Source: Promethearchaeota archaeon (lineage in GTDB: Archaea; Asgardarchaeota; Lokiarchaeia; Sigyniarchaeales; SOKP01). From it: a stretch of DNA of 64,000 nucleotides. Shown piece by piece: positions 14,882-22,626 of the stretch. The notes below the pieces were generated by a model. It was not told the origin of the DNA. It saw only the letters and a program-made list of their open reading frames with translations, and did no database searches. The stretch is taken from NCBI GenBank assembly GCA_048939995.1, contig JBHLOY010000001.1, forward strand, positions 471,265-535,264, given 5' to 3'. How positions within the stretch are numbered: position 1 is the stretch's first letter; each line of letters opens with the position of its first letter. A program made the translations under genes and the position numbers.

Positions 14882-16109
14882 CTAAAATTGATAAATAATT
14901 ATTTGATCTGGAATTATCAATTCTTCTTCTTTGTTTTTACAAGCGATAAATTTTATTTTCATTTTTAATGCTTCCGAAAGAAGACGTTTGGTTAAGATCC
15001 CATCAATAATTAAATATTCAGTTTTATTATATTTTATAATCTCTTCAAATAATTCTTTGACAGGGATTTCAAATAATTTTTCTAGTTTATTGTTATATCC
15101 TATGCTATAATCGGGTGGAATTGTATCTAGGGCATCAATAATTATATTTTGGTTTTTAATTTTAAGCTTTTTAAGGAGTTTAGTAATCAAGGTTTCTGCA
15201 GGTTTTTTTTCCTTAGCTGAGGGGATTGTTTCTGATTTCTCTAAAGGTTCTGTTGTAGATCTTTTATTTTGAAGGGACTTTATCAATTGCTTCCTTGTTA
15301 ATTCTTCTACTTCATAACCCTCAGGTGCTCGAGCAATAAAATCAACTTTTACTAGTTGCATTAATTCTTTTATAATTAGTTCACCCCCACGATCTCCATC
15401 AGAGAAGATAATTATTGACTTTTTTTGTTTTGCTAAGTCTATTACAGATTTTGGGATATGAGTTCCTTGAACCGCTATACTATTTTTTATACCTATTCTT
15501 AATAAGTTTAGTACGTCTGCACGGCCCTCTACAATGATAAGTTCGTCGTTGCTATCGACTTCTGGTCCTGCAGGTAGTCCTTCAGGCCCCCATTTTATTA
15601 TTTCGCCAAGTTTAATATCTGTATCTATCTTTTCTTCAATTTCACTAGGTTCGAGCGATTTTTGATCCCATTCTTTTAATAATTCTGCTGCTCGTTCAAT
15701 AATTTTTTTGCGTTTGGTTTCTCTTACATCTCTAATTTCAATTAGTTTGATTTGGGCTTCACATGGTCCTACGCGAGTAACAGTTTCAACTGTCGCCGCC
15801 AATAATGCTGTCTCCTTTCTAGTTAATGAGGATGGAATTTTAATAATGCCTATTGAAAGGCCCTCTTTGGATTCATTTTCTACTTCAATCCTTCCAATTC
15901 GTCCTGATTTTTGAAGATCTCTTAAATCAAGATCTAAAAGGAGACCCTCGGTTTAGCCGATTGAGCCGAACTGGCTTTTTTTATCTTTGACCAAATATGG
16001 CGCCGACTATATCGCTCTTTTCAACCACTCCTTTAATTTCAAATTTAGCTTCAATAATATATTTTGTAGTAAAATCTACTTGATTATTGGTAATCTTGAT
16101 CACTTCCAT
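14882..16109 (-). CDS. dnaG: archaeal DnaG (primase-like, exosome-associated), split: exon1 16109-15987, exon2 15952-14882, 397 aa spliced
   Basis: Exon1 ends KYIIEAKFEIKGVVEKSDIVGAIFGQ; exon2 starts TEGLLLDLDLRDLQKSGRIGRIEV and continues in frame into the listed ORF with TOPRIM motifs IIVEGRADV and DGDRGG. Confidence 0.93.
15953..15986 (-). other. candidate BHB/BHL-type mRNA intron in dnaG (34 nt)
   Basis: Insert AGAUAAAAAAAGCCAGUUCGGCUCAAUCGGCUAA has an in-frame UAA and shifts the frame; central helix GGUC/GGCU, two AAA bulges, intron helix GAU/AUC. Confidence 0.8.
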
Positions 16110-16571: not shown

Positions 16572-17600
16572 ATGATTGAGAAAATTATTGTGTTTGGAGG
16601 CAAAGGTGGGGTTGGAAAAAGTTCAATTAGCGCAGCAACTGCTGTTAGACTATCAGAATTACTCCCTGGAAAAAGAATTTTATTAATTTCATTTGATATA
16701 GCTCATAATCTATCGGATATTTTTGGAACGTCTATAAATAGTGAAATATCCCCAATTACGGCTAACTTGTGGGCGATTGAACCGGATCCAGATCTGTATG
16801 CTGAAGTATATACAAAGGATTTAGTAGAAAAAATGAAAACTTTGACAAAGCAAATGCCCATAATTGGAAGTTTACCCCAGATTGATAAGTTTATTAATAC
16901 AACTTTTACGTCTGATTCCATCCCACTAGCTTTAAAAAATGCAATGTTTTTCCAGAAATTACTAGATGCTGAAGATATCAATACTCAAGACATCCATTTT
17001 GATATTATTGTAGCGGATTTTCCTCCTACAGGAAATATGGTTGCCCTTTTTGAAATTCCTGAAGATCAAGTAAAAGTTGTTCTTAAATATTCTTTAAATT
17101 TTTATAATTCAATCAAGAGCGCAATTAGGAATCTGTCGAAAATGTTTAGACAAATAATTAAACCATTTGATAATGGGACTTATGAAATGAGAAGGGAATT
17201 GGGAAAAGATATATTCAATATGATTGTAGAACTTGAAAAAAGAGGAGAGAGAATAAGTGAATTAATTCATAAAGTAGGATCCTTAAGATTAGTAACAATT
17301 GCAGAGCGTCCTAGTTTTGAAGAAGTAAAAAGAGCACGCGATTTGACCAAAAGATATATTTCCCTCCATGCAGTTCATATAAATATGATTACCCCTAAAG
17401 CGAAACGATGTGAATTTTGTAATATATTACGAGAAAATCAGCTAAAATTTATCGCAGAAATTAAAGAAGAATTTAAAAATATAAAAATTTGGGAATCAAA
17501 TCGTCTTATTGAGGAACCAATTGGAATAGAAGGAATTAAAAAGTTAGCAGTAGAAATATATGGATCTGCCATAGCAGATGATATACTAAATCCAATTTAA
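16572..17600 (+). CDS. ArsA/Get3 (TRC40)-family ATPase
   Basis: GGKGGVGKSS, D.AHNLSD and DFPPTG motifs; C-terminal CEFC. Confidence 0.88.
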   Translation: MIEKIIVFGGKGGVGKSSISAATAVRLSELLPGKRILLISFDIAHNLSDIFGTSINSEISPITANLWAIEPDPDLYAEVYTKDLVEKMKTLTKQMPIIGSLPQIDKFINTTFTSDSIPLALKNAMFFQKLLDAEDINTQDIHFDIIVADFPPTGNMVALFEIPEDQVKVVLKYSLNFYNSIKSAIRNLSKMFRQIIKPFDNGTYEMRRELGKDIFNMIVELEKRGERISELIHKVGSLRLVTIAERPSFEEVKRARDLTKRYISLHAVHINMITPKAKRCEFCNILRENQLKFIAEIKEEFKNIKIWESNRLIEEPIGIEGIKKLAVEIYGSAIADDILNPI

Positions 17601-21342: not shown

Positions 21343-22626
21343 ATGAGTATAGATAAAAAACTAAAAGAAATCCAAAAATTTATAAAAAATTTAAATGGAA
21401 AGACCAAGTTCATTGTATCACAAAATTCACATGCGTTAGGACTATCTAGACAGACTTATCAAAACAAACTTGATAGTTTGAGAGAGCAGAAAATAATTAC
21501 TAATTTCACAATAAACATTAATCCAGATATTCATCCCAACAACTTGAAGTATGTAATGCTTGAAATTAAAACTAACCCAAAAGAACCTGAGCTGGTTAAG
21601 GAACTATTAGAAATACCCCAGTTAAGAATGTTGGATGGAATAATTGGAGATTTCTCCTTATTCTCCTTGTTTATCTTTAAATCCCCTGAAGAATATTTTC
21701 AGATATTAAATAAAATAGATAATATAATGGCAAAATCATACTTTAAAAAATATAAAATAATTGAAACTATAAAGGTATATAAGACAAATGGAATTAGCTT
21801 AAGAAAATCTAAAGTGTCTTATGAAGAAGAACTCGTGGAAAAATTAAATCATAAGTTTCAAAATCAAGATGTTGATGAAAATGATAAGGTAATTGTTAAG
21901 ATGTCAGAAAAAGTTGATTTAAATGAAATTGCTAAAAAAATGCAGAATATTGAGTACGATCCTAAGAGATTTCCGGGCCTTATTATAAAGATAGTAAATA
22001 GTAGTATTAAAGTTATACTTTTCTCAAATGGGAAAATAATTATCACTGGTTTAAAGAATGCCGCAAATGTAACTCAAATAATCAATAAAATAATTGAAAG
22101 CATAAAAAAAACTGGAATAAGTTTAGATAAGAAAAATTTTGACTTAAATTATGAGATTGATGATATTGATTATACAATTTTAACCATTTTGCGAGATAAT
22201 CAAGGTCCTAAACCAATATCCACCTATGAAATAAGTAGATTTTTTAAAGATCGATACAAAACAGAAATTTCTCAATCAACTATTCATAATAGAGTGAAAA
22301 AATTAGAAAAAAAAGGAGTTATTTTAAATTATGCAATAAATTTTTGTCCAAAAAAAATCGGTTTTGAAGGAAAATATCTCCTTCGAATAAAACCAAAAGA
22401 TCCATCAAAATATAATGAACTCGCCCTCAAACTAGATATGAATAAATATATTACTGATTTATTTAGAATAGGTGAGCAATTTGGTTTATTTGCTATTGTC
22501 AGAGTAGAAAAAATTGAAGAATATGCGAGGTTTATTAAGGATTTATACACGTCAGAAGAAATTGAAGATACCTTTACAAATTTTGTTTTAGACGAATTAA
22601 TTACCTGTAATAATTTTGTGTTATAG
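21343..22626 (+). CDS. tandem Lrp/AsnC-family regulator with an embedded TBP-like repeat
   Basis: Two wHTH+RAM modules flanking VDLNEIA..IEYDPKRFPGLIIK..VILFSNGKIIITG. Confidence 0.8.
   Translation: MSIDKKLKEIQKFIKNLNGKTKFIVSQNSHALGLSRQTYQNKLDSLREQKIITNFTININPDIHPNNLKYVMLEIKTNPKEPELVKELLEIPQLRMLDGIIGDFSLFSLFIFKSPEEYFQILNKIDNIMAKSYFKKYKIIETIKVYKTNGISLRKSKVSYEEELVEKLNHKFQNQDVDENDKVIVKMSEKVDLNEIAKKMQNIEYDPKRFPGLIIKIVNSSIKVILFSNGKIIITGLKNAANVTQIINKIIESIKKTGISLDKKNFDLNYEIDDIDYTILTILRDNQGPKPISTYEISRFFKDRYKTEISQSTIHNRVKKLEKKGVILNYAINFCPKKIGFEGKYLLRIKPKDPSKYNELALKLDMNKYITDLFRIGEQFGLFAIVRVEKIEEYARFIKDLYTSEEIEDTFTNFVLDELITCNNFVL

What the first reader, a model, noticed from the sequence alone, without database searches (positions are those of the whole stretch)
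15944..15995. Candidate endonuclease-spliced (BHB/BHL) intron in the dnaG mRNA of an Asgard archaeon
Seen: the minus strand reads AUA UUU GGU CAA [AGAUAAAAAAAGCCAGUUCGGCUCAAUCGGCUAA] ACC GAG GGU CUC. The 34-nt insert (15953-15986) has an immediate in-frame stop and shifts the frame, yet both flanks are undecayed. Removing it restores GAIFGQTEGLL and a 397-aa DnaG. The junction folds with a 4-bp central helix GGUC/GGCU, a 3-nt AAA bulge on each strand and an intron helix GAU/AUC. Cutting after the second base of each bulge, the archaeal splicing-endonuclease rule, gives exactly this excision. The exon-exon helix is imperfect, so the motif is BHL-like. Established: EndA plus RtcB splice tRNA and rRNA introns; the crenarchaeal cbf5 intron is the classic mRNA case. 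Inference: mRNA splicing in a conserved protein gene of an Asgard lineage, which pipelines would call a truncation or pseudogene. I cannot confirm novelty without a literature search.
Basis: partly seen in the sequence, partly recalled or inferred. Interest (0 to 1): 0.95.

Follow-up and report, generated by a model that had tools for sequence, protein, structure and literature searches.

The report
tRNA-type intron splitting archaeal dnaG
The only dnaG gene of this Asgard archaeon is interrupted by a 34-base insert shaped like the introns archaea cut out of tRNAs; about 90 related genes in two archaeal phyla carry such inserts at four nearby spots, so the messenger RNA almost certainly has to be spliced, which the papers I could search show inside a coding sequence for only one archaeal gene (cbf5).

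Summary
Observation confirmed, interpretation supported. The 34-nt insert (15953-15986, minus strand) breaks the genome's single dnaG; removing it gives a 397-aa DnaG. It is not an assembly error: 73 Asgard dnaG genes carry 28-43-nt inserts at four sites within codons 31-45, in all three frames. 70 of 73 form the 4-bp central helix in the register the endonuclease rule demands. At this site the exon's Gly wobble base and its intron partner pair in 54 of 54 genes, using all six pair types. Both exons are under purifying selection (dN/dS 0.03, 0.05). The genome encodes a two-subunit EndA with the specificity loop, plus RtcB, and four more such inserts (purA, metG, uL11, MoxR). 19 of 139 genomes of a second phylum also have dnaG inserts. 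Corrections: no exon helix exists (HBh' motif), and the motif is not the predicted minimum-energy fold. No spliced RNA was seen for this lineage; one Hermodarchaeia contig of unknown library type lacks exactly its intron. The scan found dnaG and other Asgard mRNA introns before on other DNA. I found no paper reporting them.

The parts
15987..16109 (-). dnaG exon 1: 41 codons from ATG 16109 (GTG 16103 is an alternative start), ending ...GAIFGQ; first part of the N-terminal RNA-binding domain
   Evidence: (PRK04031 positions 1-26); dN/dS 0.026 in the clade of this genome
15953..15986 (-). 34-nt HBh'-type intron; in-frame UAA at 15983-15981; +1 frameshift
15989..15992 (-). 5' (exon) strand of the 4-bp central helix, GGUC; includes the Gly40 wobble base that covaries with the intron
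   Evidence: pair types CG 32, UG 9, AU 6, GC 4, GU 2, UA 1 in 54 genes
15986..15988 (-). 5' three-base AAA; predicted cut between 15987 and 15986
   Evidence: cut rule from PMC2738675
15983..15985 (-). 5' strand of the intron helix h' (GAU), pairing with AUC at 15961-15959
15964..15976 (-). inner hairpin of the intron, AGCC-5-nt loop-GGCU; GCC/GGC in 34 site-A introns, GUC/GGC in 3, GUC/GAC in 3 site-B introns
15955..15958 (-). 3' (intron) strand of the central helix, GGCU
15952..15954 (-). 3' three-base AAA; predicted cut between 15953 and 15952
14882..15952 (-). dnaG exon 2: 356 codons plus stop, from TEGLL; holds the Toprim domain; gene callers start it at internal codons and give 306-338-aa truncated proteins
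   Evidence: dN/dS 0.048

Best explanation
The insert is a tRNA-type mRNA intron. The dnaG pre-mRNA folds locally into a relaxed HBh' motif: a 4-bp helix between the exon end and the intron end, a 3-nt bulge and a short intron helix. The two-subunit EndA cuts after the second base of each 3-nt stretch, RtcB joins the exons, and the 34-nt intron is released, perhaps as a circle. The spliced mRNA encodes full-length DnaG, most likely the RNA-binding exosome subunit. Unspliced mRNA stops after 42 codons, so DnaG output depends on splicing. Shown: insert, motif, covariation, selection, enzyme genes. Inferred: cleavage by this EndA, ligation, circularisation, any regulatory role.
For: 73 Asgard genes with inserts at four sites; central helix 4/4 in 70, 3/4 in 3; 93-100% of the 7 motif pairs formed vs 8-71% when slid by 1-3 nt. 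Site A wobble/partner pair formed in 46 of 46 distinct sequences, permutation mean 30.7 and maximum 39 in 20,000 (kin not independent); at least 5 changes of the intron partner base on the DnaG tree. Unrelated intron interiors in four families use the same site and geometry. Lengths cover all three frames. Single dnaG in a 98%-complete genome. dN/dS 0.026 and 0.048, no higher than intronless genes. EndA alpha has the Tyr/His/Lys triad and the loop with the Lys aligned to A. pernix K44; a second subunit lacks the His; RtcB present (PMC5829648). Four more HBh' inserts in this genome restore conserved motifs. Contig L195 lacks exactly the 28 nt the rule predicts at site C, while a genomic contig 99.7% identical in protein is split with spacing that implies a 28-nt insert.
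Against: No spliced sequence was found for this lineage. L195 may be an intronless DNA allele; its library type is unknown. The motif is not the predicted minimum-energy fold. Within close kin alone covariation does not exceed shuffles; the signal comes from across genera and families. The substrate range of Asgard EndA has not been measured.
Confidence: 0.9

Rival explanations
1. Translational bypassing or frameshifting: the ribosome hops the insert, as in T4 gene 60 or mitochondrial byps elements (known from memory), with no RNA cutting.
For: A stop codon right after the 5' junction and a downstream hairpin resemble bypass signals. 33 site-A genes have a matched Gly codon at the two ends.
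Against: In the exon-2 frame the intron ends in a stop in 48 of 54 site-A genes, so landing on the matched Gly codon meets a stop at once. This genome has no matched pair. Sites B, C and D have none. Lengths in all three frames exclude a fixed frameshift. Bypassing does not explain exon-intron covariation.
Confidence: 0.03
2. The intron is removed at the RNA level, but by an enzyme other than EndA/RtcB, or EndA cleavage mostly inactivates the mRNA and only a minor part is ligated.
For: The motif lacks the exon helix and is not the most stable fold. Yeast TSEN cuts mRNAs without splicing them (PMC10485636).
Against: The geometry (4 bp plus 2 nt to each cut) is exactly that of EndA at four sites and in four other genes. 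The gene is single-copy and under selection, so enough spliced product must be made.
Confidence: 0.04
3. Pseudogene, or split gene: the insert is a MITE-like footprint or small duplication, and exon 2 is translated alone from an internal start.
For: AAA direct repeat at the junction; databases list 305-347-aa products for close kin.
Against: Exon 1 is under the strongest purifying selection. The repeat is 0-1 nt at sites B, C, D and in 11 site-A genes. The break lies inside a highly conserved motif of the RNA-binding domain (PMC4227792). No other copy of the insert exists in the genome. A tandem-duplication test was negative.
Confidence: 0.02
4. Assembly or sequencing artefact.
For: Raw reads could not be examined.
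Against: Same-site inserts of related sequence in 17 other genomes of the genus and in an independent Logan assembly.
Confidence: 0.005

Closest known systems
cbf5 pre-mRNA intron of Desulfurococcales and Sulfolobales (Watanabe 2002; Yoshinari 2006; Yokobori 2009, PMC2738675)
   Same: Short intron in a conserved motif of an RNA-metabolism gene; relaxed BHB; cuts after the second bulge base; two-subunit EndA; patchy presence; mistaken for a frameshift by annotation.
   Different: Different gene and lineages. Four insertion sites rather than one. Site reuse by unrelated intron sequences, repeated gains and a recombination tract. Several other genes of the same genome are interrupted. Splicing is shown by cDNA for cbf5 but only inferred here.
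HVO_1309 5' UTR intron of Haloferax volcanii (PMC7714728)
   Same: BHB intron in an mRNA, cut by EndA, released as a circle.
   Different: It lies in the UTR and does not break a reading frame; the enzyme is the homodimeric type.
Non-canonical HBh' tRNA introns of TACK and Asgard archaea (PMC5829648; bioRxiv 10.64898/2026.10.13.758758)
   Same: Same motif class, length range, repeated gains and predicted enzyme.
   Different: The host is an mRNA. The 2026 preprint never mentions mRNA. No tRNA intron printed from this genome resembles the insert.

Membership tests
Archaeal BHB-type (EndA-spliced) intron | 4-bp central helix between exon end and intron end, with cuts two bases beyond each strand | tested here: met
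   4/4 here; 70 of 73 Asgard genes; slid controls far lower; 18 of 19 non-Asgard genes
Archaeal BHB-type (EndA-spliced) intron | Intron-side helix h' after a 3-nt bulge | tested here: met
   3 bp here; 2-7 bp at site A (one gene 1 bp), 4-9 bp at site C, 3-11 bp at site D
Strict hBHBh' motif | Exon-exon helix h closing the second bulge | tested here: not met
   No adjacent exon pair in 54 of 54 site-A genes; this is the relaxed HBh' class
Archaeal BHB-type (EndA-spliced) intron | Structure conserved by covariation rather than by sequence alone | tested here: met
   Six pair types at the wobble pair, 54/54 paired; at least 5 partner changes on the tree; not significant within close kin alone
Archaeal BHB-type (EndA-spliced) intron | Host encodes an EndA able to cut relaxed motifs (two subunits, L1/CSL loop with Lys) and RtcB | tested here: met
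   criterion from PMC5829648; sequence-level test only
Archaeal BHB-type (EndA-spliced) intron | Precise excision restores the functional product | tested here: met
   397-aa DnaG with contiguous profile positions
Archaeal BHB-type (EndA-spliced) intron | Spliced RNA or circular intron observed | tested here: inconclusive
   None for this lineage; L195 fits a spliced Hermodarchaeia transcript but its library type is unknown
Archaeal BHB-type (EndA-spliced) intron | Cleavage by EndA shown in vitro or by depletion | not testable with these tools
   needs experiment
Translational bypass element | Matched take-off and landing codons with an open frame after landing | tested here: not met
MITE or insertion-sequence footprint | Target-site duplication of fixed length, terminal inverted repeats, further copies | tested here: not met
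   Direct repeat 0-4 nt and variable; single copy in genome
Known structured RNA family (Rfam) | Match above the gathering score | tested here: not met

The most novel reading that the evidence does not exclude
EndA/RtcB splicing of protein-coding mRNA is routine, not exceptional, in several Asgard classes and in at least one lineage of a second archaeal phylum. The N-terminal motif of dnaG is a hotspot that has been invaded repeatedly at four positions, with introns spreading between lineages by short recombination tracts. Many genes annotated as truncated in these genomes are then intact, spliced genes.
Probability: 0.65. Interest if true: 0.88.

Novelty: new member of a known kind. Interest (0 to 1): 0.74.

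Why it matters
Reviews up to 2023 list two archaeal mRNAs spliced by EndA, only one inside a coding sequence. A conserved core gene with such introns in about 90 genomes, with exon-intron covariation, would make mRNA splicing a normal part of gene expression in the closest archaeal relatives of eukaryotes. It means databases hold systematically truncated DnaG proteins (52 of 53 Hermodarchaeia clusters) and that gene-loss calls in Asgard genomes need rechecking. It also gives a tractable test of how BHB introns arise and move, an open question for Asgard tRNA introns. No link to spliceosomal introns is implied.

Tried and rejected
Tandem duplication of the flanking exon as origin: the interior looks like the exon's last codons by eye, but scored mid-range against other positions of the gene in nearly all of 38 tests; dropped. 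Search for spliced junctions in JGI metagenome contigs, for this clade and for Hermodarchaeia: none. Search for full-length proteins from intron-fixed lineages: only P0172. P0016 (full length, identical to a site-B gene's product) is an intronless DNA allele, not a transcript. Paper search for the L195 sample ids: none. Homology-free genome scan for broken genes with the motif: 16,975 raw hits; dnaG ranked 4th and uL11 12th after filters, but it was too noisy for a census (one search timed out). Rfam: nothing. Promoter scan: at chance level. My first bypass test counted a Gly match as viable; one search corrected it. The non-Asgard lineage could not be named. Five literature searches aimed at this claim found no report of dnaG or Asgard mRNA introns; most subscription journals are not covered.

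Full report
Observation. The minus strand carries dnaG from 16109 to 14882, convergent with an OsmC-like gene behind the eIF6-ftsY-secE cluster. A 34-nt insert at 15986-15953 separates FGQ from TEG. Its second codon is UAA and it shifts the frame. The halves match contiguous positions of the archaeal DnaG model, and removal gives 397 codons. This is the only dnaG in a 98%-complete genome. The motif has a 4-bp central helix GGUC/GGCU, AAA at each cut, a 3-bp intron helix and an inner 4-bp hairpin. Shuffled inserts give the seven motif pairs 0.04% of the time. There is no exon helix, and the motif is not the predicted minimum-energy fold.

Host. The closest named proteins come from Promethearchaeota / Lokiarchaeota records, so the genome is a Loki-type Asgard archaeon; I did not place it further.

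Not an artefact. In the genus, 20 of 37 scorable genomes have an insert: 18 at this site (A) and 2 at a site 22 nt upstream (B). An independent assembly has a 36-nt version. A survey of 400 genomes of the phylum showed split dnaG in most genera of the family and in four other families. I examined 73 such genes: 54 at site A (four families, with unrelated interiors), 4 at B (within Ile34), 14 at C (within the second Leu of EGLLG, all Hermodarchaeia) and 1 at D (after Glu31, nearest a Helarchaeota protein). Lengths are 28-43 nt, in all three frames, and 68 of 73 have a stop inside.

Structure is what is conserved. With boundaries set by exon codon patterns (for sites B to D the register was chosen after seeing the motif), the central helix is 4/4 in 70 of 73 genes. 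The seven motif pairs form in 93-100% of cases, against 8-71% when one strand is slid by 1-3 nt. The strongest evidence is pair 3 at site A, between the Gly40 wobble base and an intron base: CG 32, UG 9, AU 6, GC 4, GU 2, UA 1, none unpaired. Intronless genes use A 14, C 10, T 6, G 5 at this wobble. Permuting partners among 46 distinct sequences gave at most 39 pairs. Kin are not independent, but the intron base changes at least five times on the tree. Among close kin alone the signal is not significant.

Both exons are functional. dN/dS is 0.026 for exon 1 and 0.048 for exon 2 in the seven genes nearest this one, against 0.085 and 0.116 in an intronless group. The break lies in the N-terminal RNA-binding domain described for Sulfolobus DnaG (PMC4227792). 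The genome has exosome core genes and PriS, so this DnaG is most likely the exosome subunit (inference).

Machinery. Two EndA paralogues are present. One aligns with A. pernix EndA alpha over its whole length, including the catalytic Tyr, His and Lys and the loop whose Lys44 allows relaxed substrates (PMC5829648). The other lacks the His. RtcB is present, and ARAGORN calls introns in many tRNAs.

Not alone. Inserts of 30-37 nt with the same geometry and a 4/4 central helix interrupt purA, metG, uL11 and a MoxR ATPase in this genome, and their removal restores motifs I know from these families. Three of these leads came from earlier scan notes; uL11 also came out of my own scan. Outside Asgard, in the phylum of a Bathyarchaeia genome, 19 of 139 sampled genomes have dnaG inserts of 18-32 nt: 18 at site D in one deep lineage I could not name, and 1 at site A. 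77 other dnaG loci, mostly euryarchaeal and bathyarchaeal, were intact.

RNA evidence. None for this lineage. Of 53 Hermodarchaeia protein clusters, one is full length. Its 1,524-nt contig covers only dnaG plus about 100 nt each side and lacks exactly the 28 nt the cutting rule predicts. A 74-kb contig with a 99.7% identical protein has the gene split, with 223 nt between the start and a fixed codon against 195 nt in the short contig. This fits a spliced transcript, but the library type is unknown.

Gain and movement. Site A presence needs at least 16 changes on the sampled tree, and site-B genes sit on four separate branches; the sample was enriched for split genes and the count does not tell gain from loss. 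One site-B gene is 98% identical to an intronless allele, yet differs at 11 of 91 positions beside the intron against 16 of 1,129 elsewhere. This suggests arrival with a short tract of foreign exon by recombination (inference). Origin by exon duplication was not supported.

Mechanism. Most likely EndA cuts the HBh' motif twice and RtcB ligates (0.9). Bypassing fails because the intron ends in a stop in the exon-2 frame in 48 of 54 genes. A regulatory role, for example feedback by the poly(A)-binding DnaG on its A-rich intron, is possible but untested; the many intronless kin argue that it is dispensable.

Novelty. The kind is known from cbf5 (PMC2738675) and HVO_1309 (PMC7714728); a 2023 review lists only these two and expects more (PMC10485636). 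I found no paper on dnaG or Asgard mRNA introns. Earlier notes of this scan report dnaG introns in Hermodarchaeia and Jordarchaeia/Freyrarchaeia and similar introns in other Asgard genes; they are leads, not support. Verdict: real, new member of a known kind, interest 0.74.

Noticed in passing
G000 C7:109926 (-), C6:82172 (+), C23:129234 (-), C7:20329 (+): 30-37-nt HBh'-type inserts in purA, metG, uL11 and a MoxR ATPase gene, each with a 4/4 central helix.
   Followed up: partly
L197-L200, L202-L214, L216 (site D) and L201 (site A): dnaG introns of 18-32 nt outside Asgard, in an unnamed lineage of the phylum holding Bathyarchaeia; intron helices up to 11 bp; 16S GC 59-63%.
   Followed up: partly
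L195 (JGI 3300036486, 1,524 nt): Only full-length Hermodarchaeia dnaG found; lacks exactly the site-C intron; also has a 1-nt frameshift near the 3' end; RNA or DNA origin unknown.
   Followed up: partly
L016 vs L193: Cluster of mismatches around the site-B intron between otherwise 98%-identical alleles; near-identical site-B introns in two genera (L016, L096).
   Followed up: partly
window 21343-22626 (+): Lrp/AsnC-type regulator with a TBP domain inserted at residues 185-256.
   Followed up: partly
window 15948-15977 (+): On the plus strand the intron forms two terminator-like hairpins followed by T runs; it could stop read-through from the convergent operon, whose last gene ends 8 nt from dnaG.
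   Followed up: no
G022 C91 (L011) and C40 (L037): One genome bin holds an intron-bearing and an intronless dnaG on different contigs; they fall far apart on the tree, probably contamination.
   Followed up: no
G000 C28:3141-3533 (-): A third RNase PH-family gene besides the adjacent pair on C19.
   Followed up: no
window 16572-17600 (+): Single-domain Get3/ArsA ATPase divergent from dnaG, near secE and ftsY.
   Followed up: no
G000 C17:377452 (-), C7:27864 (+), C10:35138 (+): Top-ranked hairpin candidates of the homology-free scan; not checked against homologues.
   Followed up: no
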